A stretch of DNA of 46,305 nucleotides from Gemmatimonadaceae bacterium (GTDB lineage Bacteria; Gemmatimonadota; Gemmatimonadetes; Gemmatimonadales; Gemmatimonadaceae): NCBI GenBank assembly GCA_034666285.1, contig JAXDME010000278.1:1-46305 (forward strand), in the 5' to 3' direction. The notes beneath the pieces are model-generated. The model saw only the letters and a list, made by a program, of their open reading frames with translations, was not told where the DNA came from and did no database searches. A program made the translations under genes and the position numbers. Positions 198 through 26,003 of the stretch are shown piece after piece; position 1 is the stretch's first letter; every line of letters starts with the position of its first letter.

Positions 198-228
198 TCG
201 CACTAAGGTCTGATGAACCAAGGTGTGA
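198..228. promoter_or_regulatory. Tandem putative transcription-factor sites (TCGCAC-TAAG-GTCTGA at 198-213; ATGAAC-CAAG-GTGTGA at 213-228)
   Basis: Matches the 6-4-6 inverted repeat that recurs at 20562, 23446, 23887, 24689 and 25981. Lies in the divergent intergenic region upstream of the tolC-RND operon. Confidence 0.55.
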
Positions 229-1641
229 TTGTTGGTGATTCCAAGGGCGGCGACCATTCGGGCGATGATAACGCAACGGGATGCAATCGCCGCGCTGAGT
301 GTCGCGCTCACCATGTACGTCGCGCCGTGGGTCGTGCCCGTAGTCGCGGGTCAGGGTATCGGGATCCCACGGCCAGTTCCGCCAACTCCGGCGTTGAGCG
401 ATTCCATCGTTTCCTATCCGTTACTGACCCTGGACGAAGTTGTCGAGCGTGCACTGGCAGTGAGCCCATTGGTCGCCTCGGGGACTGGCGGGGTTGAGGT
501 AGCTCGGTCGTTCAAGCGGACGACGATCGGCGCCTACATCCCGACAGTCCTTGCAACCTCCGCTGCAACACGCGCCGGTCCGGCCGCGGCCCAAACAACG
601 TCTGGCGTTGGTGGGCCCACACCATCGAGCAGTCAGACATTCGGCCTCGCCGCCGCTGTGGACCTTTTTACGGGAGGACGCCGGCAGGCGAACGAAGCAT
701 TGGCCCGAGCTGATCTTCGCGCGGCGGGATCGACACTCGTGTCGGACCGTTTCGTTGTCATGCTCGCGGCCCAACAGGGGTTCTTTGAAGTAGTTCGGGC
801 GACAGATCTCGTACGCGTCGCGCGTGCTGCGTTGGCGGAAGCGAATCAGCTACTGCGTTACACGGGAGACATGTTCCGGGCAGGCACTGCGATGAAGTCG
901 GATTTTCTTCGCGCGCAGCTCCAGTCGACGACGATGCAGGAGCAGCTACTCGCTGCAACCGATACGCTCGTGACCGCTACGTATACGTTGGGATGGATCG
1001 CGGGCACGGACGGACCCGTTGGAGCGCGCGACGACAGCGCGACCGAGGCGATACGCCCGCTGGTGCTGGACGACAGTGCCATAGTTCGCCTGGCGGTCGA
1101 GGCATCACCCGGGGTAGCCGTCGCAAATGACGCGGCCGCTGCGACTAGCGCGGCGCTTCGCGCCGCACGCACCCAATACGTTCCGACTATAAGCGCGAGC
1201 GCCGGCCGCAATTGGGCGGGTAGCTCCACCGTCGTTTCCGGGGCGCCGCGCCCGGGGTGGACAGTAACTGTCGGCACGAGCTACCCGGTGTTCAACGGCT
1301 TTCAGCGCGAGGATGCTATCGTGCGCGCCCAAGCCGCCGCATACGTGGCCCGGGTGGCCGTGGCAGACACCCGCCGGTCTGTTCGGGCGAGCGCGGCGCA
1401 GCTTCTGGCTGCTCTCCGCACAACCGACGCAGCCATTGTGCTCGGAGTCGAATCAGTTCGCTCGGCGCGCGAAGATCTGCGCGTTCAGACGATGCGCTAC
1501 CGCGCCGGCATCTCCACAATGCTCGACGTGCTCACATCGGAGGCTGCCCTGCTTCAAGCGGAGCACAGCCTGTCGGCGTCGCAGCATCGTTATCACACCA
1601 CGCGCGCCGCCCTCGAAGCGCTCGTCGGGAGAAAGCTCTGA
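229..1641 (+). CDS. TolC-family outer membrane efflux protein
   Basis: Two OEP-like repeats (DLFTGG..., YPVFNGF..., YRAGISTMLDVLTSE). Its TGA overlaps the RND ATG. The true start may be ATG 265 or 313. Confidence 0.85.
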   Translation: MLVIPRAATIRAMITQRDAIAALSVALTMYVAPWVVPVVAGQGIGIPRPVPPTPALSDSIVSYPLLTLDEVVERALAVSPLVASGTGGVEVARSFKRTTIGAYIPTVLATSAATRAGPAAAQTTSGVGGPTPSSSQTFGLAAAVDLFTGGRRQANEALARADLRAAGSTLVSDRFVVMLAAQQGFFEVVRATDLVRVARAALAEANQLLRYTGDMFRAGTAMKSDFLRAQLQSTTMQEQLLAATDTLVTATYTLGWIAGTDGPVGARDDSATEAIRPLVLDDSAIVRLAVEASPGVAVANDAAAATSAALRAARTQYVPTISASAGRNWAGSSTVVSGAPRPGWTVTVGTSYPVFNGFQREDAIVRAQAAAYVARVAVADTRRSVRASAAQLLAALRTTDAAIVLGVESVRSAREDLRVQTMRYRAGISTMLDVLTSEAALLQAEHSLSASQHRYHTTRAALEALVGRKL

Positions 1642-4600
1642 TGTGGATAGTCCACCTGGCTCTTCGCCGGCCGTACACGTTCGTGTGCGTCGCCATTCTG
1701 ATGCTCGCGTTCGGTGTGATGGAGGCCCTCAGGATGCCGGTGGACATTTTCCCCGCCATCAACATCCCGGTCGTGTCGGTGATCTGGAATTACGGAGGGC
1801 TGTCCCCGCGGGACATGGAGCAGCGCATCGTCTCGCCGTCGGAGCGCGCGTACTCCTCGACCGTGAATAACGTCGAGCACATTGAATCGGAATCGCTGAA
1901 CGGCACCGCGCTGATCAAGGTCTACTTCCAGCCCAACGCCGACATCGCTACCGGTGTCTCGCAGATCACCGCTGTATCCCAGTCGGTGGTCCGTTCGATG
2001 CCGCCAGGTATCACGCCGCCATTCATTGTTCGCTTCAACGCCACCGACGTACCGATCCTCCAGCTCGGGATCAGCAGTCCGCAGCGGACCGAAGCCCAGC
2101 TCAACGATCTCGCGAACAATTTCATTCGCACTCCGCTGGCGACCATCCAGGGCCTCACTATCCCGGGTGCAAACGGGGGCGCGGGACGGGTGATCAACAT
2201 CGACATCGATCCGGCTGCGCTCTACGCCAAGGGAATCTCGCCGACAGACGTCACCACCGCGCTCGGATTGCAGAACGTGATCCTGCCGTCCGGCACGGTG
2301 AAGATGGGCTCGCTCGAATACTTCGTACGACTGAACTCGACTCCTGACTCGATCAACGTTTTGGGCGACATGCCGATCCGTGAAGTGAACGGAGCGATGA
2401 TTTACATCCGCGACGTTGCACAAGTGCGGGACGGCTCGGAGATCCAGACGAGTGTCGTGCGCAACAACGGGCATCGCGGGATTTACCTCACGATGATCAA
2501 GAACGGAGGTGTGTCGACGCTCAGCGTCGTGAATTCTGTGAAGGCGATGCTGCCCTCGCTCGAGGCAACCCTGCCACCGGATGTAAAGGTGCAGCTCCTG
2601 GCGGATCAATCCATTTACGTGACCGCAGCGGTGAGCGGCGTCATTCGCGAGGGCGTGATCGCAGCGTGTCTGACGGCGCTGATGATTCTGATCTTCCTCG
2701 GCAGCGGACGATCGACGGTCATAGTTGCGACGTCTATTCCGCTTTCGATCCTGACATCGATCATCTGCCTGTCGCTATTCGGTCAGACACTCAACGTCAT
2801 GACGCTTACCGGACTGGCGCTCGCGGTGGGGATTCTCGTCGACGACGCGACCGTGGCAATCGAAAACATCCATCGGAACCTGTCACAGGGGAAAGAGCTG
2901 GTTCAGGCGATCGTCGATGCATCCGACCAGATCGCTCTTCCCGCTCTCGTGTCGACGTTGGCAATCTGCATCGTGTTCCTGCCGATCTTTGCGCTGTCCG
3001 GGCCGGCTGCGGCGCTCTTCCGCCCACTCGCAATGGCGGTCGTATTCGCGATGCTCGCGTCGTACTTCCTGTCGCGAACACTGGTGCCGACGATGGCGAA
3101 GTACATGCTCCGGGAGCCCAAGCCGAACTCCGCAGCGTCGAGAGGCTGGTTCAGTCGAGCAGCCGCCGGCTTTCAGCGCGGCTTCAACGCGTTCCGTGGT
3201 GGCTACCAGTCGGCGCTGGCTTGGGCGGTAATCCACCGTCGTGGAGTACTGGCGGTGACGGGTCTCATCCTCGTCGGGACGGCGCTGATGGTGCCGCGAC
3301 TCGGACAGGATTTCTTTCCACAGGTGGACGCGGGGCAATTCCAGCTTCACGTGCGTGCTCCGACCGGGACGCGCGTGGAAGAAACCGAGCTGCTTATCGC
3401 CGATGTCGAGAGTGCGATTCGCGAGACTATCCCCGCGAACGAGGTCGCGCTGGTTCTCTCCACGATCGGATCCACTGCAAACTCCATAAATCTGATCCTG
3501 GGGTCCAGCTCTGTAGGCCCGGCCGACGCGGACATGCTGGTGCAGCTCACAGCCACGCACGGCTCGACTCCCGGCTATCAACGCGCGCTCCGCGCCACAC
3601 TGCCTCAGCGATTTCCCGGCGTCACCTTCTTCTTTCAACCGTCCGACATCGTGAACCAGGTGCTGAACCTCGGTCTTCCAGCCCCCATTGACGTGCAGAT
3701 CTCGGGAGCAAACCTGACGGGCAACTTCGCCATGGCGCAGCGCGTTGCCATGCAGCTGCGCACCGTGCCAGGCGCCGCGGATATTCGCGTTCAGGAATTG
3801 ATGGACGCTCCGCAGCTCACGCTCTCGGCGGACCGAACGAACCTGACGCAGCTCGGGCTCACGCAGAGCAACGTCGCCTCGAACCTGCTCATCTCGCTCT
3901 CCTCCAACGGCTCGACGGCGCCGAACTATTGGCTCGACCCGAAGAACGGCGTTCAGTATCCCGTGAGAGCCATGACGCCGCAGTACAAGAATGCGACCAT
4001 GGACCAGTTCGAGGCGACCCCGGTCTCGGTGGTTGGACTTCCGCAGCCACAGCTATTCGAGAACCTGACATCGGTCACACGTACGACGATTCCCGCCGTA
4101 GTCAATCATTACAACATCACACCGGTGGTGGACGTGCTCCTTGGCGCGGACCAGCGCGACCTGGGCGGTGTTGCGAGCGGCGTCGATGCGGTGATGGCCA
4201 AATTGCAGTCATCACTCCCGCGGGGCTCGACGTTCGTGTTGCGCGGCCAGGTGAACAGCATGCGCACTTCTTTCACCAGTCTCGAGATCGGGATCGTGTT
4301 CGCGGTGCTGCTCGTCTACATCCTCCTCGTCGTAAACTTTCAGAGCTGGCTCGATCCGCTCATCATCGTCGCCGCGTTGCCCGGTGCAGCCATCGGGATC
4401 GTGTGGATGTTGTTCGTGACCGGCACGACACTGAACGTGCCGTCGCTGATGGGAGCGATCATGGCGATGGGTGTCGCGACGGCCAATAGCGTGCTCCTCA
4501 TCACCTTTGCGGAGGGGCAGCGCCGCGCCGGCCGGAGTGCCATCGAAGCGGCGACCGACGCCGGGTTCGCACGGCTTCGTCCCGTATGCATGACGGCGCT

Positions 4601-4787
4601 TGCCATGATCATCGGCATGACGCCGATGGCTCTCGGATCGGGGCAGGGCGGAGAGCAGTACGCGCCCCTGGGTCGCGCCGTGATCGGCGGGCTCCTCGTT
4701 GCCACCATCTTCACTCTGTTCGTCGTGCCGCTGCTGTACAGCGTCCTGCGAGGAGAACGGCGCCACGCGGCGCAGGAGGTTGTATGA
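1641..4787 (+). CDS. RND efflux permease (AcrB/AcrD/AcrF family)
   Basis: Start reassigned to ATG 1641 (MWIVHLALRRPYTF). About 1048 aa; TM4 GILVDDATVAIENI, RLRPVCMT, PLGRAVIGGL. Confidence 0.95.
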   Translation: MWIVHLALRRPYTFVCVAILMLAFGVMEALRMPVDIFPAINIPVVSVIWNYGGLSPRDMEQRIVSPSERAYSSTVNNVEHIESESLNGTALIKVYFQPNADIATGVSQITAVSQSVVRSMPPGITPPFIVRFNATDVPILQLGISSPQRTEAQLNDLANNFIRTPLATIQGLTIPGANGGAGRVINIDIDPAALYAKGISPTDVTTALGLQNVILPSGTVKMGSLEYFVRLNSTPDSINVLGDMPIREVNGAMIYIRDVAQVRDGSEIQTSVVRNNGHRGIYLTMIKNGGVSTLSVVNSVKAMLPSLEATLPPDVKVQLLADQSIYVTAAVSGVIREGVIAACLTALMILIFLGSGRSTVIVATSIPLSILTSIICLSLFGQTLNVMTLTGLALAVGILVDDATVAIENIHRNLSQGKELVQAIVDASDQIALPALVSTLAICIVFLPIFALSGPAAALFRPLAMAVVFAMLASYFLSRTLVPTMAKYMLREPKPNSAASRGWFSRAAAGFQRGFNAFRGGYQSALAWAVIHRRGVLAVTGLILVGTALMVPRLGQDFFPQVDAGQFQLHVRAPTGTRVEETELLIADVESAIRETIPANEVALVLSTIGSTANSINLILGSSSVGPADADMLVQLTATHGSTPGYQRALRATLPQRFPGVTFFFQPSDIVNQVLNLGLPAPIDVQISGANLTGNFAMAQRVAMQLRTVPGAADIRVQELMDAPQLTLSADRTNLTQLGLTQSNVASNLLISLSSNGSTAPNYWLDPKNGVQYPVRAMTPQYKNATMDQFEATPVSVVGLPQPQLFENLTSVTRTTIPAVVNHYNITPVVDVLLGADQRDLGGVASGVDAVMAKLQSSLPRGSTFVLRGQVNSMRTSFTSLEIGIVFAVLLVYILLVVNFQSWLDPLIIVAALPGAAIGIVWMLFVTGTTLNVPSLMGAIMAMGVATANSVLLITFAEGQRRAGRSAIEAATDAGFARLRPVCMTALAMIIGMTPMALGSGQGGEQYAPLGRAVIGGLLVATIFTLFVVPLLYSVLRGERRHAAQEVV

Positions 4788-6223
4788 TTTCGTCAGCTCC
4801 CAACGTTGCATCGAACGGTCAGGCGACAACGGGAACAACGCGGACTCCACCCGAAGCCGGGACCCGGCCGCCCACCTCGCAAGAAACGCCAGCGCCGCCC
4901 GAAGTCGAGACGGCGCCGCCAGTCGCTCCGATGGAAAATCGGCGGGTAATGCAAATCGGCGTCGCCTTCGCCGTCGTGCTCATCGGTCTCCTTGTCCTCG
5001 GCATCCTGCCCCGGCGTTCGTTGCAGCGGCAGCTCAGCGCCGAGGTCGTGACGGCGACGACCGCATTGCCGATCGTTGCCGTTGCGAAGGCGCAGCGGCC
5101 GACGGCTGCGAACACGCTGCTACTTCCCGGAACGATGGAGGCGCTGCACGAAGCCGCGCTTTATGCGCGCGTGTCAGGATACGTGCGTCGGTGGTACGCC
5201 GACATCGGGGCACCGGTGCGCGCCGGACAGGTCCTCGCCGATATCGATGTTCCGGAGGTTCAGCAAAGTGTGTTGCAGGCGCGCGCGCAGCTGGCGCAGA
5301 CACAGAGTGCGCTAGTGCTCGCACGCTCGAATCTGGAACGGTGGCGGCTGCTCGCCGCCGACAGTGCGGTGACTGCTCAGGAGCTCCAGATGATGCAGCA
5401 GGCGTACGACGCGGCGGTCGCGAACGTCCGCGCGGCCGAAGCGTACCTGAGGGGATTGATCTCGACGCTGCAGTACGCGCAGGTGAGGGCACCATTCTCT
5501 GGAATCGTAACGGCGCGAAATGTCGAGAATGGCGCGTTGATCACCGCCAGCGGATCCTCCTCGGCACCGCTCACCGCGGGTGGATCTCAATACACTCCCG
5601 CGACCAGCGTCACCGCGGCCAGTCTCTTTCGCGTCGCGCAGACCGATACCATGCGCGTGTACGTCAGCATTCCACAGCTGTACGTCTCCTCGGTACGCGC
5701 TGGCCTGCCTGCAGACCTCGTGATCACGAATCTGAACAATCAGGCTTTCCGCGGAACCATTGTCCGCACCTCCGGAGCGGTAGACCCCAGTACTCGGACT
5801 CTGTTGGCAGAGGTCGACGTGCCGAACCCCGCGCGTGTGCTGCTCCCCGGCATGTATGCGCAGCTGCGCATCACGGTTGATCGGGTCAACGCGCCGCTGG
5901 TGATTCCATCGACTGCGCTCGTGAATCGGGCCAACGGTCCGCAAGTAATCGAGCTGGTCCCGACGGGCAACGGCCGCGGGACCGTCCACCTTCGCAGCGT
6001 ACAGGTGGCTCGCGACTACGGCGCGACACTGGAGGTCGTCTCCGGCCTAAGCGATGGGGCGCTGGTCGCGACTATCGGAACGCTGATACTCACCGACGGG
6101 CAGACCGTGCGCATCGCTACATCAACAACAGACTCGACGGGAGTAAAGACGGTCGCTCCCACGAAGGGAAGTGCTAACCCAACTCGCACGGCTTCAGTCG
6201 CTTCGCGAGTCACCGCGCGCTAG
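4784..6223 (+). CDS. RND periplasmic adaptor (membrane fusion protein)
   Basis: ATGA overlap at 4784. Pro/Thr-rich N-terminus, one TM, ARVSGYV...GQVLA, VRAPFSGIV, VDPSTRTL, LLPGMYA. Confidence 0.92.
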   Translation: MISSAPNVASNGQATTGTTRTPPEAGTRPPTSQETPAPPEVETAPPVAPMENRRVMQIGVAFAVVLIGLLVLGILPRRSLQRQLSAEVVTATTALPIVAVAKAQRPTAANTLLLPGTMEALHEAALYARVSGYVRRWYADIGAPVRAGQVLADIDVPEVQQSVLQARAQLAQTQSALVLARSNLERWRLLAADSAVTAQELQMMQQAYDAAVANVRAAEAYLRGLISTLQYAQVRAPFSGIVTARNVENGALITASGSSSAPLTAGGSQYTPATSVTAASLFRVAQTDTMRVYVSIPQLYVSSVRAGLPADLVITNLNNQAFRGTIVRTSGAVDPSTRTLLAEVDVPNPARVLLPGMYAQLRITVDRVNAPLVIPSTALVNRANGPQVIELVPTGNGRGTVHLRSVQVARDYGATLEVVSGLSDGALVATIGTLILTDGQTVRIATSTTDSTGVKTVAPTKGSANPTRTASVASRVTAR

Positions 6224-6241
6224 TCAAAGCGCGAATGGAGA

Positions 6242-7639
6242 ATGGTCATGTCGAGAATCGAAGGGTATTCGCTCAAGGTCCTCTATGCCGCGGCTTGCTG
6301 TCTGAGCCTGCTTACCGGTCAACGTGCATCTGGCCAGGTGCTACAGGGTGCGGCGGCCTTCGGCGGCTGGCGCGATGACAAGCCGGGCGTAAGGCGTCTG
6401 ATCACGGCGCAGGATCTGCCGCCTGTCTCCAAGGAGTCCCAGGGCCTTGCTCAGGTCGTGCCGATACCGGCGGGTGCAAAACCCCAGCTTCCTCCGGGCT
6501 TTTCTGCCGAGCTCGTGACACCAGCGCTGCGCAACGCGCGCGTGATTCGCGTCGCACCGAACGGCGATTTGTTCGTGGCCAGCAGCATGTCCAACTCGGT
6601 GCACGTGTTGCGCATTCCGCCTGGTAGCGCCAAGCCACTGACGATTTCGGAATTTGCGACCGGCCTGCGCCAACCATTTGGCATCGCGTTTTACCCGCTC
6701 GGACCAAATCCCAAATGGGTATACGTCGCCAACAGCGACGGAGTGGTGCGCTTTTCCTACAGCAATGGCGATCTCAAGGCAACCGGACCAGCGGAACGCC
6801 TCGTCTCAGGAATCCCAACAGCCCACCACTGGGCGCGTGACATCGCCTTCTCGCCGGACGGCCAGCGACTGTACTTCTCGGTCGGGTCCGGATCCAACGT
6901 TGCGCAGGACATGTTCCCTGTGCCGCACCTGGTCTCGACTCCGGAGCCGCGTAACATCGAGAGTCTGACCGACTGGCTCAAGGTGAGGCCGGCGGGCTCC
7001 GCGTGGGACACCGAGGAGCTTCGCGCCAATGTCCTGTCGTTCGACCCGAGCGGTAAGGATATGAAAATCGTCGCCACTGGCCTGCGCAATTGCTCGGGCA
7101 TCACGATTCAACCCGAAACCCAGCAGCTGTGGTGCGTCGTCAACGAGCGCGATCAGCTCGGTGACAACACGCCATTCGAGTACGCGACGCACGTCGTCGA
7201 CGGTGCTTTTTATGGTTGGCCGTGGTACTACACAGGCTCACACGAAGATCCGCGGCAGGCCGGCATGCGACCCGACCTCAACGGGAAAGTCACCGTCCCC
7301 GACGTCTTCATGCAGGGACACTCGGCACCTTTGCAGATCGCGTTCTATCAGGGCAGCAACTTTCCCGCCGAGTACAAAGGCAGCGCCTTCGTCACGATGC
7401 ATGGCTCGTGGGATCGCAGCAACCGCACGGGTTACAAAGTCGTGCGACTCCTCTTCGACGCGACTGGAAAGCCCACCGGCGAGTACGAGGATTTCATGAC
7501 CGGCTTCGTTGTCTCGGATAACCAGGTTTGGGGACGCCCGGTTGGTGTAGCCGTCGCGAATGATGGCTCGCTGTACGTGACGGAGGATGGCAACGGGACG
7601 ATCTGGCGGATCACCTACAACGGCAGCGCAACCCGCTGA
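6242..7639 (+). CDS. Glucose/sorbosone dehydrogenase family (PQQ-type beta-propeller), exported
   Basis: Signal peptide; ATGLRNCSG, VNERDQLGD, FYGWPW, HGSWDR, GRPVGVAVANDGSLYVTED. GGAG RBS directly upstream. Confidence 0.85.
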   Translation: MVMSRIEGYSLKVLYAAACCLSLLTGQRASGQVLQGAAAFGGWRDDKPGVRRLITAQDLPPVSKESQGLAQVVPIPAGAKPQLPPGFSAELVTPALRNARVIRVAPNGDLFVASSMSNSVHVLRIPPGSAKPLTISEFATGLRQPFGIAFYPLGPNPKWVYVANSDGVVRFSYSNGDLKATGPAERLVSGIPTAHHWARDIAFSPDGQRLYFSVGSGSNVAQDMFPVPHLVSTPEPRNIESLTDWLKVRPAGSAWDTEELRANVLSFDPSGKDMKIVATGLRNCSGITIQPETQQLWCVVNERDQLGDNTPFEYATHVVDGAFYGWPWYYTGSHEDPRQAGMRPDLNGKVTVPDVFMQGHSAPLQIAFYQGSNFPAEYKGSAFVTMHGSWDRSNRTGYKVVRLLFDATGKPTGEYEDFMTGFVVSDNQVWGRPVGVAVANDGSLYVTEDGNGTIWRITYNGSATR

Positions 7640-7652
7640 CCGGTTGACGACG

Positions 7653-7856
7653 ATGATCAGGTCTCATCGAGGAACTCCATCGCGCATCCTCGGAATCCTC
7701 TCGGGGGGTCTCGCGGCGATCCTCGGGTTTCTCGCCTTCAACGTAATCGACGGCGTCTTCGGCTTCGGCAAGTCGCTCATCGGTCTCGCCGCTGGCATCG
7801 CAACGACGTTGCTGGTATTCACGCGCTCACCGCGGGGCCGCGACGCCGATGCATAA
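7653..7856 (+). CDS. Small two-TM membrane protein (67 aa)
   Basis: ATG 7653 follows the dehydrogenase stop. Two hydrophobic segments; the end overlaps the cydA start and it fills the gap in the operon. Confidence 0.55.
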   Translation: MIRSHRGTPSRILGILSGGLAAILGFLAFNVIDGVFGFGKSLIGLAAGIATTLLVFTRSPRGRDADA

Positions 7857-10384: not shown

Positions 10385-10422
10385 ACCAAACCGTCGCTTA
10401 CGACCACAAGAGAGGAAACGCC

Positions 10423-17687: not shown

Positions 17688-19334
17688 TTACCGGGCCATC
17701 ACGCTGTCCCGCGCGAGCACGGTACCGGAGACGTCGGCCATCGACTCGTAATACGAGACGAACCGGTCCGTCTCGGGAGCGCGCTGCAGACGGAGATTCT
17801 GCGCCCACCGAAAGCCAATAGGCTGGTACCAGAGCTCCACCAGGACCTTGAAAGGCCCCTGTCCTCGCGGGACGTCGATGTTGTAGCGGGTCAGAGCCGA
17901 GCCGCCGACGAACGCGGGATCGTTCGCCGCGTCACCTACGACGGCGATGTCGCGATCGGCCGTTGTCTTGTCGAAGCCGCGCGGCAGAATGCGACTGTCC
18001 TTCAGGTAGCCTATACCAGACACGATTCCGGTCGTGACGATGCCGTATGGATCGCGCATGATCGACTCGTAGATCTGCACCTGACCGGATTGCGTGATTT
18101 CGCGATAGTGCGGTTCGTACCTGAGGCGATCGTCATCGTTGTCGTTGCCGACAATTCGACCGGTCCGGGTCAGAGCGCCCGACTCAAAGACTATTGCGCC
18201 AGATCGGTCGCGCACGACAACGTGCAGCCAGGCGCGACGCGAGGGATAAGCCGTCGGGAGCTTGTGGCCGCTCAGGTTCGTCACCTCCACATCTGCCACG
18301 AGATGTCCCGAAGCGGCGTGCCCCGGTCGTACCGTCACCGTCGCAGCTTGCGCCAGGATCGCGCGCGTCTGCGACATCGCGAGATCGAGCTCCTGCGGGA
18401 ATGCCTCGACTGCCAGCTCCGCGCGGTAACGATTGAGCATGCCGAGCACGAAGAAATTTCCGCCTGGGAACCAGTGCCGCCGCACGTCGGGCCGCGACTG
18501 GCCACGAATCGCCGTGATGGGAACACTGTCGCCCGCGGCGACGACGCGCGGCATATGACACGACTGGCAGCTTTGCTCGTTGCGGTACGCGCTGTGTTTC
18601 CACTCGAGAAAGGGCATCTGCTCGGGCAATGTGCCGACACGGCGACCCGTCGAATCCAGGCTCGGTGTGTACAGCGTGTGACACGTCGCGCACAGCTCGG
18701 ATTGGCGAATATGTTCGCTCTGGGTCGGAACGAATCCGCTCGACGAGTGCATGATCGTCGTGTGTCCGCGATCCACCGCGTAAGGGCCGAAGATCGGCCG
18801 GCGACCCACGGGCGTCGTGGTGTCGATCACGAAGCCGCCGTTGAAGCTGGAGGAATCGCCGAGGCGCTCTGTTCCGATCTGGTGGCACATGGTGCAGGAA
18901 ACGCCATCCGCGGCGAGGCTGTCGAGATGATTGGTCCCTCCCCTGGTTGGGAACCGGTCGAAGACCAGTCCCCGGCCACCCGACGCGCGCGCGGCGAAGC
19001 GCTGCATGGGCATGTGGCAGGTGGAGCAGTCGTCCTGGATCAGAGCGCTCGCGGTCGGGTGATCGAGAACCTCGCGCCGCACGGACGCTTGCCAGTACGG
19101 ATCGCGTGACGAGTTGGCCATCATCGACGCGCGCCAGTCGAATCCGATCGACGCATCCCGTCCCGAGGGCGTGGTGAGACCGTTGTGACACGCGAGGCAC
19201 CGATCTGCAGTGAGGAAATGCGCCGGCCCAGCCTCACCCCCACTCGGCGCGGTGGTGTAGCCCATCGTCGCGATGAGCACGAGGATCGCGGCCACCGTCG
19301 CGACGGGCGCGCCGAGGCGTCTCAGTGCTCGCAT
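17688..19334 (-). CDS. Exported pentaheme c-type cytochrome
   Basis: Five CxxCH motifs (CLACH, CSTCH, CTMCH, CATCH, CQSCH). Signal peptide from ATG 19334 (MRALRRLG...). Heme-free C-terminal domain with GHKLPT. Confidence 0.85.
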   Translation of the reverse strand: MRALRRLGAPVATVAAILVLIATMGYTTAPSGGEAGPAHFLTADRCLACHNGLTTPSGRDASIGFDWRASMMANSSRDPYWQASVRREVLDHPTASALIQDDCSTCHMPMQRFAARASGGRGLVFDRFPTRGGTNHLDSLAADGVSCTMCHQIGTERLGDSSSFNGGFVIDTTTPVGRRPIFGPYAVDRGHTTIMHSSSGFVPTQSEHIRQSELCATCHTLYTPSLDSTGRRVGTLPEQMPFLEWKHSAYRNEQSCQSCHMPRVVAAGDSVPITAIRGQSRPDVRRHWFPGGNFFVLGMLNRYRAELAVEAFPQELDLAMSQTRAILAQAATVTVRPGHAASGHLVADVEVTNLSGHKLPTAYPSRRAWLHVVVRDRSGAIVFESGALTRTGRIVGNDNDDDRLRYEPHYREITQSGQVQIYESIMRDPYGIVTTGIVSGIGYLKDSRILPRGFDKTTADRDIAVVGDAANDPAFVGGSALTRYNIDVPRGQGPFKVLVELWYQPIGFRWAQNLRLQRAPETDRFVSYYESMADVSGTVLARDSVMAR

Positions 19335-20515
19335 CCCTGACACCAGCCTTTCCAGCCTTGCATTAGCGGTCCGTCCGCGATGTCCCACAACAAATAGGCA
19401 CGAGCGAGCGTCGAGCGCGTGTCGCGCTGCGTCAGCGGGATGTCGGCACCCAGGCCCAGGCGAACGTGCTGTAGCGCGCTAAGCGAGACCTGGAATTGCG
19501 GCACAACGCTCCAGTCGACCGGCGCACCTACGCCGAGGTCGTGCGACGCAGTCAGCTCGACAATCGGCGACCAGATGCGCGTGATCGGTCCGAGGCCGAA
19601 AGTCTTGCCGAGCGCGCCGCCGAAGTATGTCGACCGCGGCGCGCGAGACAAATCGACTGGCACTGTCAGACCGCCCTGAAACTGGAAGAAACCTCGTCCG
19701 GGGAATAGCTGAGCGCCGAGGATGAAGCCCTCGAACGCCGTTGTGCCGGTACCGAGTCCAATTGTTCGGTCGCCCGTTGGAAGAACTACGCCCGCCAGTC
19801 CGCTCACGATCGTGCCGCTGTTCAGGTTGGCGACGAACACGTGCTTGCCTGCGATAGAGATGTCACCCATTCCACCCGCCACCGAAGCGCCATTCGGACG
19901 CGCGACGAACCCGAACGGGATGTCGAGCTCGAGCTGACTGCGGATCCCGAAACGTTTCTCGTAGATGAGATGATTCTCGTCCGACCTCGGCGCGCGCGTT
20001 GCGAATGCGCTCGTCGCGACCCACTCATCCTCCGGAAATGCTTTCTCGGTGGTCTGCGCGAGCGCCACGTTGAACTCGCCGAGCGGATATCGACGATCCT
20101 TACACAAAGTCCGCATGTACGCGGTGACGTTTCGAATCTGCTGCGGGGTGAGCAGGTCGCGGAACGCAGGCATGATCCGGCTGAAGCCGCGCACCGGCCC
20201 GCCATCGCGAATGACCGCCGCCCAATCCACCGTCATCTCGGCAGTGGTGGCAACGCAGTCGTTGAATACTGGAAGTGGCTGCGCAAATCCCACTGTGCTT
20301 CGCGGAGCGCCCGCCCCGTCGAGGCCGTGGCACGCGGCGCAGGTCGTGCGAAAAATCTCCTCTCCTGCTTTCGGGTCGCCGAAGGGGGCGCCGATCGCAC
20401 CGCTCGCTCCCACGAGCAACGCGATAACCGGCACCGCCGCGACGAACAAAATCGCGGCGATGCGCATCGGCAACCAATATATGATTACAGCCAGGTAGGT
20501 TCGCATGTGTTCCAT
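19322..20515 (-). CDS. Monoheme cytochrome c fused to a predicted outer-membrane beta-barrel-like domain
   Basis: Signal peptide (start possibly ATG 20467); CAACH...MPAF class I cytochrome c; then ~230 aa of amphipathic strands with GMGDISIAGK and LPTGD...GLGTG. The barrel assignment is inferred. Confidence 0.7.
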   Translation of the reverse strand: MEHMRTYLAVIIYWLPMRIAAILFVAAVPVIALLVGASGAIGAPFGDPKAGEEIFRTTCAACHGLDGAGAPRSTVGFAQPLPVFNDCVATTAEMTVDWAAVIRDGGPVRGFSRIMPAFRDLLTPQQIRNVTAYMRTLCKDRRYPLGEFNVALAQTTEKAFPEDEWVATSAFATRAPRSDENHLIYEKRFGIRSQLELDIPFGFVARPNGASVAGGMGDISIAGKHVFVANLNSGTIVSGLAGVVLPTGDRTIGLGTGTTAFEGFILGAQLFPGRGFFQFQGGLTVPVDLSRAPRSTYFGGALGKTFGLGPITRIWSPIVELTASHDLGVGAPVDWSVVPQFQVSLSALQHVRLGLGADIPLTQRDTRSTLARAYLLWDIADGPLMQGWKGWCQGCEH

Positions 20516-20561: not shown

Positions 20562-20577
20562 TCCTACTTTGGTAGGA
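20562..20577. promoter_or_regulatory. Putative TF site TCCTAC-TTTG-GTAGGA
   Basis: Perfect 6-bp inverted repeat with a 4-bp spacer, in the 87-bp gap upstream of the cytochrome-barrel gene. Same geometry as the other sites. Confidence 0.55.
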
Positions 20578-20602: not shown

Positions 20603-22027
20603 CTACGGAGGAGTTACCTCGATCGTTCCCATCATGCCCTTGTCTTCGTGCGAGAGTATGTGGCAGTGAAAGACGAACCTGCCGACGATCAACGGGTCGG
20701 TGAACGGGATGATTACCTTCACCTCGCCGCCGATTGGGACATCGACGATGTCGCGATGGTCGTCGACGGGTTGCGCAACGCCGTTGATCTCCACCAGCTG
20801 AAAAGGGCCCTGGTGGATGTGAAAGGTGTGCAGCTCGTCCGCCGAGTTGCGGATCGTCCACTCCTCGATTGCGCCGAGCTTGACGCGGACGTCGGTCCTG
20901 CCCGGATCGAAGGTCCTGCCGTTGATGAACAGAGTGTCACCATCCTTCGTTTCCGAGAACACGATGGTGCGCCGGTTGGTGACCTTTCCCCGGAGATCTT
21001 CGACGGACAGCAGCGCGGGAGGGAGGAGCACCGGCGTGGCCGGCGGTCCTTCCACGCGCACAGTTGCCATGACCGTACCGGCATACTGATTTCCTTCGCG
21101 CCCGGTGTCGACGTCTCCCGTCCGGAGCACGTAGACTCCCGGAGCACCGGCCGTCACGAGAACCTCCGCGCGGGCGCCCGGCGACAGCCTGACCGTGTCT
21201 GCCGTCGCTATTCTCGTCCGACGGTTCCCGTCGCGGGCCACCAGCCGAAACTGGTGGCTGTCGAGCGTGAGCACGAAGTAGAGATCGGCGGACAGATTCC
21301 CGATCCGCCACAGCTCGGTCGCGCCCGGGCGGAGCACGATCACCGGCTTTACCACGCCGTTGATGGTGCGGATGACGCGCTTGCCGATGTGGGTGATCAC
21401 GACGCGTTCATTTTCGAGCTGAAGACCTTTGAGCAGTAACAGGCGCTCCGGCACGTGGCGAAGTGTAGGGAACGAATCCAGGAGCCCATCGACAATCAGC
21501 GCTCCTGCCATACCGTTTCGGACCTGCTCGTCGGAGAAACCGTGAGTGTGCGGGTGATACCAGAAAAGTCCCGGGGGTTGATTGCCCGGAATCCGGATCT
21601 CGTAGTCCTGCGCTTGTCCCGGCGCGACGCGCAGGAAGACGTTATCAGAGTTGCCGCGCGGCGAAACCGTCAGGCCGTGAGTGTGCAGGTTCGTCGGCTC
21701 GGCAAGCGCGTTCGTCAGGCGAAGCCGGATAGTATCGCCCGGACGGACTCGCAGCGTTGGTGGTGCATAGAGCCCGTTGTAGGCCATGAGCGACGCGCGA
21801 TGTCCCGCTACCGTGACCAACGACAGCTTGGGTGTCAGCGAAGTTCGCAGCACGCCGGCCCTGCTGTTTATGACCGGCGGTTCACGAAACGTCTCCGCCG
21901 GCGCGTGCGGCTCGCGGTCATTGTTTGAAGCGGAGCTGCAGCCAGTCACGGCTAAGGCGACGAGCAGGAACACAGATCGAGTGAGTCCAACTTTTCGTCG
22001 CGACCTGATGGACACACACCTTTCCAA
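20603..22027 (-). CDS. Three-domain multicopper oxidase, lipoprotein
   Basis: All four Cu motifs present: NLHTHG, WYHPH, HTFHIH, HCHILSHEDKGMM. Lipobox AVTG-C. Exact start uncertain. Confidence 0.93.
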   Translation of the reverse strand: MERCVSIRSRRKVGLTRSVFLLVALAVTGCSSASNNDREPHAPAETFREPPVINSRAGVLRTSLTPKLSLVTVAGHRASLMAYNGLYAPPTLRVRPGDTIRLRLTNALAEPTNLHTHGLTVSPRGNSDNVFLRVAPGQAQDYEIRIPGNQPPGLFWYHPHTHGFSDEQVRNGMAGALIVDGLLDSFPTLRHVPERLLLLKGLQLENERVVITHIGKRVIRTINGVVKPVIVLRPGATELWRIGNLSADLYFVLTLDSHQFRLVARDGNRRTRIATADTVRLSPGARAEVLVTAGAPGVYVLRTGDVDTGREGNQYAGTVMATVRVEGPPATPVLLPPALLSVEDLRGKVTNRRTIVFSETKDGDTLFINGRTFDPGRTDVRVKLGAIEEWTIRNSADELHTFHIHQGPFQLVEINGVAQPVDDHRDIVDVPIGGEVKVIIPFTDPLIVGRFVFHCHILSHEDKGMMGTIEVTPP

Positions 22028-22044
22028 TCAGGGTTCTGACGAGC

Positions 22045-22593
22045 TCAAACGGGCGCCAATTCCGCGCGACGTCCTGCTTCAAACAGGAACCAGGAGCGTC
22101 GCTCGGTCTCGTCCACCCAGACCTCGATGAGGCTGGCGGTCGCGATGTCACCGTGCTCGTCGCACACATTGTGGGCCTGTCGCAAACTTCCCGCGAGCGT
22201 CCTGTTGTCCTCGGCGAGCTCGGCGAGCATGTCCGATGGCTCGACGTAGTCTGCATCATTATCCGATAGGCGCTGGGTGCGGGCGATATGGCCGATCGAT
22301 CTGATGGTGAGCCCGCCGACCTTTCGAACCCGTTCCGCGATCGGGTCGGTGATGGCGAAGATCTGATCGGCCTGCTCATCCAGCAGCAGATGGTAGTCGC
22401 GAAAGTGCGGTCCGCTCATGTGCCAGTGGAAATTCTTTGTCTTTATGTAGAGTGCGAATACATCGGCAAGAATGCCGTTCATTGCGGCCGTGATATCTCG
22501 CGTTGCGATCTGCTTGAGGTCGGTCGGCGTCGACAGCACCGCATCCCGCCTATGGCGCAGAGCTTCTGTTGTCAGCGATAGTGTCATTGTCAT
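22045..22593 (-). CDS. dps: Dps / DNA starvation-stationary phase protection ferritin-like protein
   Basis: KNFHWHMSGPHFRDYHLLLDEQ, DPIAERVR, ETERRSWFL. GAGGGA RBS. Confidence 0.93.
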   Translation of the reverse strand: MTMTLSLTTEALRHRRDAVLSTPTDLKQIATRDITAAMNGILADVFALYIKTKNFHWHMSGPHFRDYHLLLDEQADQIFAITDPIAERVRKVGGLTIRSIGHIARTQRLSDNDADYVEPSDMLAELAEDNRTLAGSLRQAHNVCDEHGDIATASLIEVWVDETERRSWFLFEAGRRAELAPV

Positions 22594-22650
22594 TGGCTGT
22601 CCCTCTCATGAATGTTGGATTGTCCTGTCGTCGGGCTCGATGGGTTAGCT

Positions 22651-22696
22651 CTGACAACCGACGGCGCCGCTGTTGGAGGCACCGTCCAGTTGTCGG
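22651..22696 (-). other. Intergenic stem-loop between the DUF4136 gene and dps
   Basis: On the - strand GACGGUGCC pairs with GGCGCCGUC (one G-U) and the outer GACAAC pairs with GUUGUC. No U-tract. Confidence 0.4.
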
Positions 22697-22708
22697 AACA
22701 GTCATTGG

Positions 22709-23368
22709 TTAGGGAGCACTTGCGAGCGGCTGCGGTGGCGCTTGCGGAAACTTCGCGACGATGGCGTTGACAACACCCTGGAGCTCACTCGAGTATGTCG
22801 CCGGATCGCTTGATACCGGCTCGACGCCCTGGCCCCGCCAGATCAGCTCGTTGGTCCGCGGGTCGGTGAAATCAACGATCACTTTTCCCTCAGTGGTCGA
22901 TGTCACGCTCGCTTGACCGCCGTAGGCCCACGGGTTCATCGCGCCATAGTATCCGGCACCGTAGTACGGCCACGCCCAGCTTCTGCGACCGCGGTAGGTG
23001 TAACGCCAACCCGGATCGAAGCTCGGGCCCCAGTATGTGGTGTCGAGCTTCTGACTGGTGCCGGCGTAATATGCGACGAGAAAATCCGCCGACTGACGCG
23101 GCGCCTGTGCGTAGCCGCGCGACTGTAGCGCCTGGGCCAGATCTCCGCGCAACGCACGATTGCTGATCGAGTTGTCGAGCATCGGATCGCTCGCGGAGAG
23201 CGGGGCCGCGTTAACGCTGCGCGCTGGCGGCGTAAGAACGTAGAAGGTGTGCAACGCGGTTAGGTCGGCGTTGGGTTCGACGGCAGTGCGCACTTGCACT
23301 CCGCCGGAGCTGCAGCCCGTAGTGATTGCCGTCGCGATGACGGCGCCGAGCAGTAGGGTGGATCGCAT
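22709..23368 (-). CDS. DUF4136-family lipoprotein
   Basis: Lipobox ITTG-C; L.SRGY...ADFLVAY; Tyr/Trp/Gly-rich insert; EGKVIVDFTDPRTNELIWRG; IVAKFP. AGGAG RBS. Confidence 0.8.
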   Translation of the reverse strand: MRSTLLLGAVIATAITTGCSSGGVQVRTAVEPNADLTALHTFYVLTPPARSVNAAPLSASDPMLDNSISNRALRGDLAQALQSRGYAQAPRQSADFLVAYYAGTSQKLDTTYWGPSFDPGWRYTYRGRRSWAWPYYGAGYYGAMNPWAYGGQASVTSTTEGKVIVDFTDPRTNELIWRGQGVEPVSSDPATYSSELQGVVNAIVAKFPQAPPQPLASAP

Positions 23369-23430: not shown

Positions 23431-23461
23431 TCGTCCCTTGGTATGTCGCACCTAGGTACGA
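23431..23461. promoter_or_regulatory. Tandem putative TF sites (TCGTCC-CTTG-GTATGT; TCGCAC-CTAG-GTACGA)
   Basis: 23439-23467 matches the 25974 palindrome at 24 of 29 positions. Intergenic, upstream of the DUF4136-dps-mco run. Confidence 0.65.
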
Positions 23462-23886: not shown

Positions 23887-23902
23887 TGCTACCTTCGTAC
23901 GA
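23887..23902. promoter_or_regulatory. Putative TF site TGCTAC-CTTC-GTACGA
   Basis: One mismatch to the local consensus and followed by CA as in other copies. Intergenic, upstream of the receiver gene. Confidence 0.5.
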
Positions 23903-23924: not shown

Positions 23925-24569
23925 TCAGGATTCGTGCGCGCGAACGGAGCCGACCTGGCTATGGCCGGATGCTCTCTCGACCACCCGAACAAGCTCGGCG
24001 ACTGAATCGACCTCGAGCTTCCGCATCACGCGGCCCCGGTGCTGTTTCACTGTCTGCTCGGCGGTGCCCAGATCGGCGGCGATCTGCTTGTTCATCTTTC
24101 CTGCGACGACAAGATCCAGTACCTCGCGCTCTCGTGGGGTCAGTCGCTCGATGCGCCGCCGAGCCTCGGCCTGCTCTGAGCGGCCCGCTCTGATCAGCCG
24201 GTCGCGCTCCAGCGCGACGTCGATCGCGCCGAGGAGATCATCTTCGCGAAACGGCTTGGTCAGAAACTCGAGGGCTCCCGACTTCATGGCGCGGACGCTC
24301 ATTGGAATCGTTCCGTGCCCGGTGATGAAGATGATCGGGAGCGGCACGTCCAGATCGTTCAGCTCGTCGGGCAAGTCGAGGCCGCTACCGTCCGGCAGAC
24401 GAACATCCAGAATGAGACAGCTCGGCACGTCGTCGCGCGCTGACGCCAGGAACTCGTGCGCGGACCCGAAGGTCTCGACGCGCAGTCCGACCGATCGCAG
24501 CAGGCTGCTCAGGGAATTTCTGATGCCGGAATCATCGTCGACTACGTAAACGATTCGGCCACCGGTCAT
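23925..24569 (-). CDS. FixJ/NodW-type response regulator (REC + LuxR HTH)
   Basis: VYVVDDD, LILDVRLPDGSG, FITGHG, FLTKPF, LTPREREV...MNKQIA.DLG..EQTVKQHR. Start set at ATG 24569. Confidence 0.93.
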   Translation of the reverse strand: MTGGRIVYVVDDDSGIRNSLSSLLRSVGLRVETFGSAHEFLASARDDVPSCLILDVRLPDGSGLDLPDELNDLDVPLPIIFITGHGTIPMSVRAMKSGALEFLTKPFREDDLLGAIDVALERDRLIRAGRSEQAEARRRIERLTPREREVLDLVVAGKMNKQIAADLGTAEQTVKQHRGRVMRKLEVDSVAELVRVVERASGHSQVGSVRAHES

Positions 24570-24688
24570 CGGGCCCGTCCGATTCGTGGACACGACCGGG
24601 AGACCAACGTATGAACGAGTGGTGCGCGCATCATCCGTCCTTGCTTCGATCATATCATGCAGATAGCAGCAATCCCGCGGTCGCGATA

Positions 24689-24721
24689 TCGCACCTTAGT
24701 ACGACATACGAAAGGATTATA
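24689..24721. promoter_or_regulatory. Putative TF site TCGCAC-CTTA-GTACGA (24689-24704) plus a degenerate tandem copy; TATAAT on the - strand at 24716-24721
   Basis: AT-rich divergent region between the regulator and kinase genes. Motif match; exact -10 hexamer but no well-spaced -35. Confidence 0.55.
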
Positions 24722-24726
24722 TAACG

Positions 24727-25968
24727 TTGCGCGGGGCCGGCCGAGATTCAAGCCACCCCGGTCCAATCGAATCCCGCTTGCTTGACACCCAACGGCTGGC
24801 AACGATCTTCCCAGCTGTGCGATACGTCGTCGCGATCGTGTCTGTTGGCATCGCGCTGCTGATCTCGCGGCTCCTCGACGTCTATCTCGTCGCCGCGCCC
24901 GTATCCCTGTTGTTGTGCGCAATCATGATCAGCGGCTGGTTCGGCGGGATTCGTGGCGGATTGCTGTCGGTAGCATTGTCGGTGCTCGCCTTCGACTACT
25001 ACTACACCGCCCCGCTCCATTCGCTGTGGCCGGAGGAGAAGGAACTGCCGCGCATCCTCATCTTCGCCTTATCGGCGGTGTTCGTGGGGTGGCTCAGTGC
25101 CGCGCAAAGAAGTACGGCGGAATCCCTCAGAAACGCGCGCGATCAGCTGAGTGAAACAGTGCAGCAGCTGAGAACCGCCAACGAAACGTTGAAGGCCGAG
25201 GACGCCGAGCGCAGGCGAACAGCGGAGCAGCTGCGACAGGCACAGGCCGATCTTACGCGAGTCGGGCGCGTAACAGCGATGGGTGAGCTCACCGCTTCGC
25301 TCGCCCATGAAGTGAATCAGCCGTTGGCGGCGACGGTGATAAATGCGAACAGCTGCTCTCGCTGGCTGGCGGGAGACACGCCGAACATCGGGGAGGCTCG
25401 AGCTGCTGCCGCGCGGATCGTCCAGGAAGGCACCCGCGCCGCCGAGATCATCAGAAGGGTTCGCCTGCTTTTCACAAAGGGCGAGGAGAAGCGAGAGCCG
25501 ATCGATGTGAACGAAATAATCGACGGCATGATCGTCCTTTTGCGCGGCGAAGCGGCGCAGCATTCCGTTACGATCCACTCGGAACTGGCGACCGATCTTC
25601 CCGGGATCATGGGAGACCGCGTACAGCTCCAGCAGGTGATGATGAATTTGATAATGAACGGCATCGATGCTATGAAGGAAGCGAACGGACAGCGCGAGAT
25701 ATCAATCACGTCGCGGTGGCCGAGTCACGAACAAATCCAGGTATCAGTCAGCGATACCGGTGTGGGGCTCCCGCAGGACCAGGATCAGATCTTCAGACCG
25801 TTCTTCACCACCAAGAGCGACGGCATCGGGATGGGGCTTTCGATCAGTCGTTCGATCATCGAGTCCCACGGCGGTCGTTTGTGGGCGTCCAATGGCTCGC
25901 CGCGCGGCGCCACCTTCAACCTCACCCTGCCCGTTCCGGACACGCTCGGGGGCGGAGCGCCGCTGTGA
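24727..25968 (+). CDS. Membrane sensor histidine kinase (DUF4118-like input, FixL/NodV-like transmitter)
   Basis: Four N-terminal TMs (GWFGGIRGGLL); HEVNQPL, NLIMNG, DTGVG, FRPFFTTK, GIGMGL. Start uncertain (could be downstream of 24727). Confidence 0.9.
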   Translation: MRGAGRDSSHPGPIESRLLDTQRLATIFPAVRYVVAIVSVGIALLISRLLDVYLVAAPVSLLLCAIMISGWFGGIRGGLLSVALSVLAFDYYYTAPLHSLWPEEKELPRILIFALSAVFVGWLSAAQRSTAESLRNARDQLSETVQQLRTANETLKAEDAERRRTAEQLRQAQADLTRVGRVTAMGELTASLAHEVNQPLAATVINANSCSRWLAGDTPNIGEARAAAARIVQEGTRAAEIIRRVRLLFTKGEEKREPIDVNEIIDGMIVLLRGEAAQHSVTIHSELATDLPGIMGDRVQLQQVMMNLIMNGIDAMKEANGQREISITSRWPSHEQIQVSVSDTGVGLPQDQDQIFRPFFTTKSDGIGMGLSISRSIIESHGGRLWASNGSPRGATFNLTLPVPDTLGGGAPL

Positions 25969-25973
25969 GGGCG

Positions 25974-26003
25974 TGGTATGTCATACCTAGGTATGACATA
26001 CCA
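25974..26003. repeat. Perfect 30-bp nested palindrome TGGTATGTCATACCTAGGTATGACATACCA
   Basis: Read directly: 15-bp arms with no spacer. Each arm contains GGTATG-N-CATACC; the core is TCATAC-CTAG-GTATGA. Confidence 0.95.

What the first reader, a model, noticed from the sequence alone, without database searches (positions are those of the whole stretch)
198..26003. Recurring palindromic operator TCNYAC-N4-GTANGA suggests a local regulon
Seen, all intergenic and upstream of genes: 198 TCGCAC-TAAG-GTCTGA, 20562 TCCTAC-TTTG-GTAGGA, 23446 TCGCAC-CTAG-GTACGA, 23887 TGCTAC-CTTC-GTACGA, 24689 TCGCAC-CTTA-GTACGA and 25981 TCATAC-CTAG-GTATGA. Weaker partners lie exactly 15 bp away at 213, 23431 and 24704, and a weak copy is at 24599. 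Established: NarL/FixJ/LuxR-HTH dimers bind short inverted repeats with TAC-containing half-sites. Inference: the FixJ-like regulator (23925-24569) binds these sites cooperatively and co-regulates the RND-cyd operon, the Dps/MCO/cytochrome run and its own signalling genes.
Basis: partly seen in the sequence, partly recalled or inferred. Interest (0 to 1): 0.75.

Follow-up and report, generated by a model that had tools for sequence, protein, structure and literature searches.

The report
StyR-like regulator's operator and local regulon
Six copies of a 16-base DNA palindrome in this bacterial genome piece are real, recur beside the same regulator gene in related genomes and sit next to promoter-like sequences, so they are likely the docking sites through which the neighbouring StyR-like two-component regulator would switch on its own signalling genes and nearby stress genes; this is an ordinary kind of switch with a sequence I did not find in print.

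Summary
All six boxes and three partners are at the stated coordinates. A matrix built only from eight other genomes' boxes, chosen by position behind regulators with the same DNA-recognition helix, ranks five of the six boxes 1-5 of 2.9 million genome positions. Matrices from five other helix groups do far worse. The consensus is better written TC(G/C/A)YAC-cWWg-GTR(C/G/T)GA. A box follows the regulator gene in 9 of 9 orthologous loci. The gene-proximal box abuts a TnG (-35-like) triplet, with an nAnnnT (-10-like) hexamer 23-24 bases on (9 of 10 here, 17 of 23 elsewhere). That is the -43.5 geometry of NarL at yeaR. The regulator's closest solved structure is StyR, whose published box ATAAAC-N4-GTTTAT shares the AC-N4-GT core. 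Weak points: binding, activation and cooperativity are untested; the RND box (198) ranks 36 and is absent from 12 of 12 homologous loci; 24599 is probably coding and is not conserved. Three more candidate targets lie on other contigs. The scan reported StyR/FixJ-type promoter boxes on other DNA several times before. Verdict: a new member of a known kind.

The parts
198..213 (.). Box, distal member of a 15-bp tandem in front of the OEP/RND-cyd run
   Evidence: rank 36, 15; not found in 12 of 12 homologous RND loci
213..228 (+). Weak proximal partner box; followed by TTGTTG (229-234) and GACCAT (252-257), with the ATG at 265 seven bases after the hexamer
   Evidence: promoter role inferred
265..11559 (+). 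Candidate target run: outer-membrane factor, RND permease, membrane-fusion protein, GSDH-type protein, small ORF, cydA, cydB, small ORF, CrtC-like protein; short gaps, co-transcription inferred
11626..17538 (-). 1970-aa kinase: Ser/Thr kinase, AAA, GAF, two PAS and a FixL-like histidine kinase core; candidate partner kinase, 150 bp downstream of the cytochrome pair
   Evidence: pairing inferred
17688..20515 (-). Cytochrome c gene and multihaem cytochrome gene, downstream of box 20562
20562..20577 (-). Single box; followed by TAGTGT (20561-20556) and CACACT (20538-20533)
   Evidence: rank 1; near-identical box before the orthologue in G545
20603..23368 (-). DUF4136 gene, Dps/ferritin-like gene and multicopper oxidase, downstream of the 23446/23431 tandem
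   Evidence: co-transcription inferred
23431..23446 (-). Proximal partner box; followed by TGGTGC (23430-23425) and GATCTT (23406-23401)
   Evidence: rank 68; conserved in L125
23446..23461 (.). Strong distal box of the DUF4136 tandem
   Evidence: rank 2; identical in L125
23480..23851 (-). Receiver-only response regulator; ATG five bases after the -10-like hexamer (predicted leaderless)
23887..23902 (-). Single box behind the regulator's stop codon; followed by TTGCTT (23886-23881) and TAGCCT (23862-23857); the most conserved position
   Evidence: rank 3; equivalent box in 9 of 9 same-helix loci
23925..24653 (-). StyR/TodT-like response regulator (receiver + LuxR HTH, 242 aa, recognition helix EQTVKQHRGRV); predicted binder
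24599..24614 (.).
   Evidence: rank 366; not conserved in L125
24689..24704 (.). Box in the divergent region; proximal for the regulator (TATCTG 24665-24660, ATG 24653) and distal for kinase 1
   Evidence: rank 5; conserved in L125
24704..24719 (+). Weak proximal partner toward kinase 1; GAGATT at 24743-24748
   Evidence: rank 3507
24778..25968 (+). Histidine kinase 1 (DUF4118, FixL-like core; start uncertain, 24778 or 24817)
25975..26011 (+). Half-site 25975-25980, perfect box 25981-25996 and weak partner 25996-26011; GAAATT at 26035-26040
   Evidence: rank 4; equivalent tandem before the orthologue in L125
26068..29220 (+). Histidine kinase 2 (DUF4118; true start 26068), NAD-dependent dehydrogenase and aldo-keto reductase, downstream of the 25981 tandem

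Best explanation
The palindromes are conserved 16-bp boxes that are likely operators of the StyR/TodT-like response regulator at 23925-24653, which would, once phosphorylated, bind as a dimer just upstream of the -35 region and activate transcription. Shown: the boxes, their conservation beside same-helix regulators, their helix-matched sequence, and a fixed spacing to -35-like and -10-like hexamers that puts the gene-proximal box at about -43.5. Inferred: phosphorylation by the FixL-like kinases (kinase 1, the 1970-aa kinase); activation of the NarL-yeaR type, in which the invariant A/T pair at the box centre would be where the RNA polymerase alpha C-terminal domain docks; two promoter designs, a single strong box with a TAnnnT hexamer (receiver-only gene, mostly leaderless) and a strong box at about -58.5 with a weak one at -43.5 and a poorer GAnnnT hexamer (kinases, DUF4136-Dps-oxidase, RND), which would need higher regulator-phosphate levels; positive feedback on regulator and kinases, with the receiver-only protein likely a phosphate sink. 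The target genes point to a redox or envelope stress response; the signal is not known.
For: Helix-matched matrix from 8 other genomes ranks 20562, 23446, 23887, 25981 and 24689 first to fifth of 2,899,206 positions; five other helix groups rank most of them tens to thousands. Box at the regulator's 3' end in 9 of 9 Q-helix loci, and an AC-nWWn-GT core there in 101 of 200 family members against 23.9 expected. De novo, ATAC-N4-GTAT is the top real palindrome in intergenic DNA of 94 loci from other genomes (44 against 1.3 expected, 31 loci). nAnnnT at offset 23 or 24 in 9 of 10 boxes of this genome and 17 of 23 in others, and in 55 of 101 family-wide boxes picked by position. T at -12 in 11 of 16 single-box and 0 of 11 tandem promoters. 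Only one regulator of this type was found in the genome. StyR, TodT and TmoT may recognise ATAAAC-N4-GTTTAT (PMC5874301, passage); StyR-P activates from a site at about -40 (PMC2442086, passages); NarL binds at -43.5 and alpha-CTD binds the central minor groove (PMC10853779, passages).
Against: No binding or transcript data. Box 198 ranks 36 and is absent from 12 of 12 homologous RND loci, including G545, which has the regulator; the cytochrome box is in 1 of 18 homologous loci and 1 of 3 from genomes with the regulator. A matrix from distant homologues ranks 25981 first, but the others 99-163 and 20562 at 4778. The -35-like hexamers keep little beyond TnG, and the regulator's own -10-like hexamer (TATCTG) lacks the last T. 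The promoter set was oriented by hand, and many single-box promoters are homologous, so those counts are not independent. The genome is 86% complete, so a second regulator could be missing.
Confidence: 0.8

Rival explanations
1. The boxes are read mainly by another regulator, either a sister StyR-like protein missing from this incomplete assembly or one of the other LuxR-type proteins, and the local regulator gene is only a target.
For: Assembly 85.8% complete. Four other LuxR-type HTH proteins exist. 20562 is ranked first by the matrix of another helix group too. An earlier scan note (e1-9785735, unchecked) reached this reading in another genome.
Against: The box sequence tracks this regulator's helix across 8 other genomes. 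The other LuxR proteins have different recognition helices. No second StyR-like regulator was found in G000.
Confidence: 0.08
2. The regulator binds these boxes but represses: it would block RNA polymerase next to the -35 region, or block a basal promoter running through the boxes.
For: A perfect TATAAT on the minus strand at 24721-24716 points through the 24704/24689 boxes toward the regulator (seen). StyR also represses from other sites (PMC2442086, passages).
Against: Boxes end exactly at the -35-like hexamer instead of covering it or the -10, and the core promoters are poor, as for activator-dependent promoters. The TATAAT is not kept in L125.
Confidence: 0.07
3. The true binding unit is the everted palindrome GTATG-N-CATAC formed where two boxes overlap, bound by a different protein.
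For: Such junctions occur at 23446, 24704 and twice at 25981.
Against: The most conserved sites (regulator 3' end, 20562) have no neighbour and no junction. Other clades space their boxes 17 or 21 bp apart, which destroys the junction.
Confidence: 0.02
4. The copies are leftovers of local promoter duplication or chance and have no present function.
For: The flanks of 25981 and C39:5168 are alike over about 40 bases, which suggests promoter duplication. The loose pattern is not significant.
Against: Conservation at the same position across 8 genera while flanks diverge; genome-wide ranks; fixed promoter geometry.
Confidence: 0.03

Closest known systems
StyS/StyR and TodS/TodT (also TmoS/TmoT) of Pseudomonas, box ATAAAC-N4-GTTTAT
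   Same: StyR (1YIO) is the closest solved structure, 188 bits over the full length. The published box is a 16-bp 6-4-6 inverted repeat with the same AC-N4-GT core (PMC5874301, passage). STY2 activates from about -40 and StyR-P binds several sites cooperatively (PMC2442086, passages). One helix group in my loci carries the StyR box itself (L090).
   Different: Outer bases are TC(G/C/A)Y instead of ATAA. Two of three putative contact residues differ (StyR K175/V176/H179, here K/Q/G). Partner boxes overlap by one base at a 15-bp period. No TodS-type double kinase and no aromatic catabolic genes are in the window; the targets are signalling, redox, stress and efflux genes.
NarL at the E. coli yeaR promoter (7-2-7 site at -43.5)
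   Same: 16-bp palindrome directly upstream of the -35 element, centred at -43.5; same LuxR-type HTH; base contacts through Lys188, Val189 and Lys192 (PMC10853779, passages), positions equivalent to K, Q and G here by my alignment to StyR and recalled NarL numbering.
   Different: The half-site sequence differs; NarL scores only 69 bits against a cut-off of 250; NarL's tandem sites at ogt are 33 bp apart, not 15.
FixL/FixJ of rhizobia
   Same: Best NCBIfam hits of the regulator and of two kinases are FixJ and FixL.
   Different: All are below the family cut-offs (205 of 255; 204 and 233 of 850). The reported FixJ sites (PMC4999443, passages) do not resemble this box. A haem PAS domain was not shown.

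Membership tests
NarL/FixJ (LuxR-HTH) response regulators | N-terminal receiver plus C-terminal LuxR/GerE HTH | tested here: met
   PF00072 35-144 and PF00196 170-224
NarL/FixJ (LuxR-HTH) response regulators | Intact phospho-acceptor site (acidic pair, Asp, Thr, Lys) | tested here: met
   All invariant in regulator and receiver-only proteins
StyR/TodT-like regulators | StyR as nearest characterised structure | tested here: met
   1YIO 188 bits against FixJ 5XSO 138 bits
StyR/TodT-like regulators | 16-bp 6-4-6 inverted repeat with AC-N4-GT core | tested here: met
   published consensus in PMC5874301
StyR/TodT proper | Recognition residues Lys175, Val176, His179 and the ATAAAC-N4-GTTTAT box | tested here: not met
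   K, Q, G at these positions; outer bases differ
StyR/TodT proper | TodS/StyS-type double kinase and aromatic catabolic operon | tested here: not met
   Kinases are DUF4118-type and Ser/Thr kinase-AAA-GAF-PAS; no aromatic catabolic genes in the window
FixJ | NCBIfam equivalog NF006900 cut-off | tested here: not met
   204.6 bits, cut-off 255
FixJ | Partner kinase with haem-binding PAS domain | tested here: inconclusive
   PAS region of the long kinase matches FixL only weakly (E 7e-6), below other PAS proteins; kinase 1 has no PAS hit
NarL-yeaR-type activator site | Palindrome centred near -43.5, abutting the -35 element | tested here: met
   By sequence geometry only: TnG at offset 0, nAnnnT at offset 23/24; start sites not mapped
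NarL-yeaR-type activator site | Phosphorylation-dependent binding and activation through alpha-CTD | not testable with these tools
   Needs EMSA, footprinting and transcription assays

The most novel reading that the evidence does not exclude
The family of StyR-like regulators has a readable specificity code: an invariant AC-nWWn-GT core, outer bases set by recognition-helix residues (chiefly the residue after the conserved Glu and the one after the conserved Lys), and a clade-specific tandem period (15 bp for this Q-helix clade, 17 and 21 bp for others). In this clade, single boxes with a TAnnnT hexamer drive leaderless signalling genes, while overlapping 15-bp tandems with a GAnnnT hexamer form a higher-threshold tier, so one regulator gives a two-tier response and the family offers a natural set of orthogonal switches.
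Probability: 0.35. Interest if true: 0.55.

Novelty: new member of a known kind. Interest (0 to 1): 0.33.

Why it matters
It gives a concrete, testable operator, promoter layout and target list for an uncharacterised two-component system in a probably uncultured Gemmatimonadaceae lineage. The box behind the regulator's own stop codon offers a simple way to read the operator of any member of this large family from its own locus (101 of 200 genes examined carry the core there). The mechanism itself is of a known kind, and the scan has reported similar boxes before, so the value is in annotation and in the possible helix-to-box code, not in a new principle.

Tried and rejected
(2) The matrix from distant homologues fits poorly except at 25981; this led to clade-specific matrices. 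(3) The 18-site matrix was trained on sites picked with a window-trained matrix, which is partly circular; one search repeats the test without that step and is the one I rely on. (4) Helix-to-base co-variation is strong in raw counts (0.95 bits for one pair of positions; 90 of 102 rows concordant), but only 4 phylogenetically independent pairs exist (median p 0.5), and a second coding gave 2 pairs with no trend; not shown as co-evolution. The hypothesis was formed on the same data. (5) Conservation of box 198 before RND homologues: none in 12. (6) Consensus promoter and terminator scans found nothing above shuffles and none of the proposed promoters. (7) Expression: no RNA holder listed; no reads were laid. 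(8) Same-helix regulators were not found in the 400 other genomes of the phylum-wide draw and were found in 7 of 400 of the family draw. (9) Two primary papers on TodT and TmoT were not held, so the Tod box rests on a secondary passage. (10) The Fisher test used a miscounted table (11 of 15; the correct count is 11 of 16) and non-independent promoters; I do not use its p value.
Full report
Observation. All ten 16-mers are at the quoted coordinates. The written consensus matches 4 of the 6 main sites exactly. A close variant with one mismatch gives 7 hits against 3.98 expected, reached by 9 of 100 shuffles, so the loose pattern proves little. The exact pattern occurs 9 times in the 2,904,291-base genome, 4 of them in this window (expected 0.08). 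I called genes with my own dicodon model and annotated them with Pfam and NCBIfam. The six main sites are intergenic once kinase 2 is started at 26068.

The regulator. 23925-24653 encodes a receiver plus LuxR HTH with an intact phospho-acceptor site. Its nearest solved structure is StyR (188 bits; FixJ 138), and it is below the FixJ cut-off. It is the only regulator of this type found in the genome; four other LuxR-type proteins have different helices. The helix QT(V/I)KQHR is present in 115 of the 120 closest homologues. Many of these keep the 242-aa N-terminus, which places 24599 in coding sequence. Two homologues at 80% identity are named Gemmatimonadaceae; the lineage of this genome is inferred from that.

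Independent evidence for the motif. In intergenic DNA of 94 loci from other genomes (80, 14), a de novo search gave ATAC-N4-GTAT as the top real palindrome: 44 copies against 1.3 expected, in 31 loci. Runs of N from one masked locus head the list and are artefacts. The refined matrix showed an A/T pair at the centre and neighbours at 17 bp (47 counts), 18 (6) and 21 (7), none at 15. It ranked 25981 first in this genome, but 198, 23887, 24689 and 23446 at 99-163 and 20562 at 4778. Using only the AC-nWWn-GT core, a site lies within -60 to +130 of the stop codon in 101 of 200 regulator genes, against 23.9 expected from shuffles. The outer bases differ by helix group, and one group carries the StyR box itself. 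Same-helix regulators were found in 7 of 400 family genomes, plus G373 and metagenome contig L125; all 9 loci have the box behind the stop codon.

Tying the boxes to this regulator. A matrix trained only on the 8 position-picked boxes from other genomes (L125 left out) ranks 20562, 23446, 23887, 25981 and 24689 first to fifth of 2,899,206 positions, C282:2906 sixth, C39:5168 15th, 198 36th and C322:1907 52nd. Matrices from five other helix groups rank most of the six sites tens to thousands, though single sites score well with one group or another. An 18-site matrix gave the same top five but was partly circular. In the same-helix set plus this genome, the neighbour offset is 15 bp (9 counts, no other offset above 2; 29 sites), including a tandem in G581 that serves divergent genes.

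Promoter anatomy. Oriented toward the downstream gene, the proximal box is followed by T in 8 of 10 boxes here and 19 of 23 elsewhere, mostly TnG. An nAnnnT hexamer lies at offset 23 or 24 in 9 of 10 and 17 of 23; no other pair of offsets exceeds 3 of 10, or 8 of 23, apart from pairs that include 23 or 24. Orientation and partners were set by hand. The position-picked family set gives 40 at offset 23 and 15 at 24 of 101; in 63 distant promoters TTG or TAG follows the box in 35. Six bases plus a 17-18 spacer is sigma-70 spacing (established knowledge), which centres the box near -43.5. NarL binds at -43.5 of yeaR, just upstream of -35, and alpha-CTD binds the minor groove between the two monomers (PMC10853779, passages); the invariant central A/T pair here fits that (inference). 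Of the promoters with a hexamer at offsets 22-24, -12 is T in 11 of 16 single-box and 0 of 11 tandem ones (G 8, C 3); many are homologous, so this is a pattern, not a test. The ATGs of the receiver-only gene, the regulator and the OEP gene lie 5-7 bases after the hexamer, which predicts leaderless mRNAs.

Targets. Best supported: the receiver-only gene, the regulator, kinase 2 and DUF4136 (boxes kept in L125) and the cytochrome pair. For the cytochrome, a near-identical box lies before the 76%-identical orthologue in G545; it is in 1 of 18 homologous loci examined, 1 of 3 from genomes with the regulator and 0 of 15 from the others. The RND box has the right geometry here but was found in 0 of 12 homologous loci, so control of RND-cyd may be specific to this lineage or wrong. 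In 54 of 63 distant box-led genes scanned with Pfam, receiver-only proteins and PAS/GAF kinases dominate, with hydrolases, YceI, DJ-1, crotonase-like and redox proteins. The conserved core of the regulon is thus the signalling module; effector genes vary.

Mechanism. Shown: boxes, conservation, helix-matched sequence, geometry. Inferred: kinases, phosphorylation-dependent binding, activation, cooperativity, a two-tier response and a phosphate-sink role for the receiver-only protein. The signal is open; a haem PAS was not shown.

What is known. StyR, TodT, TutB and TmoT may recognise ATAAAC-N4-GTTTAT through Lys175, Val176 and His179 (PMC5874301, passages). StyR-P activates from STY2 at about -40 and binds cooperatively (PMC2442086, passages). 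DosR contacts bases through Lys179, Lys182 and Asn183 (PMC4082495, passage); that Lys179 matches the Gln after the conserved Glu here is my recalled alignment. FixJ sites are different (PMC4999443, passages). The passages of PMC5596368 that I saw give no NodW box. Searches returned no description of this box in their listings; the one hit I opened concerned NikR (PMC545781, passage). The library lacks most subscription papers, two primary papers were not held, and I read no supplements, where regulon tables could list the motif. Earlier scan notes describe StyR/FixJ-type boxes at about -43 in other genomes; none matched this stretch.

The code hypothesis. The helix residue after the conserved Glu shares 0.95 bits with the third base of the half-site, and Ile/Val against A is concordant in 90 of 102 rows. 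On a receiver-domain tree only 4 independent pairs exist (about 2 same way, 0 opposite; median p 0.5). It stays a lead.

Verdict. A real, conserved operator set for a StyR-like regulator; new member of a known kind; confidence 0.8; interest 0.33.

Noticed in passing
G000 C282:2906-2921 (L259): A box with TTG and TAGCAT in the same geometry drives a second receiver-only gene (68% identical to 23480-23851) on another contig; rank 6 in the genome.
   Followed up: yes
G000 C39:5168-5198 (L261): A tandem box with a GACATT hexamer whose flanks resemble window 25975-26020 over about 40 bases, in front of a 159-aa protein with no Pfam hit; looks like a duplicated promoter.
   Followed up: partly
G000 C322:1907-1937 (L260): A 15-bp tandem with TTG and a CACCGT hexamer in front of an MFS transporter, divergent from a Na+/H+ exchanger gene; candidate regulon member, rank 52.
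   Followed up: partly
window 24716-24721: A perfect TATAAT on the minus strand points through the 24704/24689 boxes toward the regulator; possible basal promoter; not kept in L125.
   Followed up: partly
window 24778-25968 against L125: L125 lacks kinase 1: its boxes equivalent to 24689 and 25981 lie 125 bp apart in one intergenic region, so kinase 1 was gained here or lost there.
   Followed up: partly
L084, L090, L098, L099, L105, L107, L114 (Acidobacteriota): Loci with a second regulator of the KAHRG helix type carry several 17-bp tandem boxes, whose -10-like hexamer keeps AT at the end but lacks the -11 A, preceded by TGG.
   Followed up: partly
L118:5009-6655: In Geopseudomonas aromaticivorans a family box lies upstream of a phenol/toluene hydroxylase subunit gene, linking the motif family to TodT/TmoT-type aromatic regulation.
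   Followed up: no
G000 C6:2-2569 and C111:2088-3512: Two more kinases resemble the window's FixL-like kinases: a fragment of a second long AAA-type kinase (48%) and a MEDS-domain kinase (53% to kinase 1); possible extra inputs.
   Followed up: no
G013 (L037-L042): One genome of the same genus has at least six StyR-like regulators on short contigs, while most genus members searched have none above 40% identity.
   Followed up: no
window 29561-33564: A minus-strand redox run (alpha/beta hydrolase, cNMP-thioredoxin reductase, molybdopterin oxidoreductase, FAD/NAD oxidoreductase) of the kind seen near such regulators has no intergenic box scoring 5 bits or more.
   Followed up: partly
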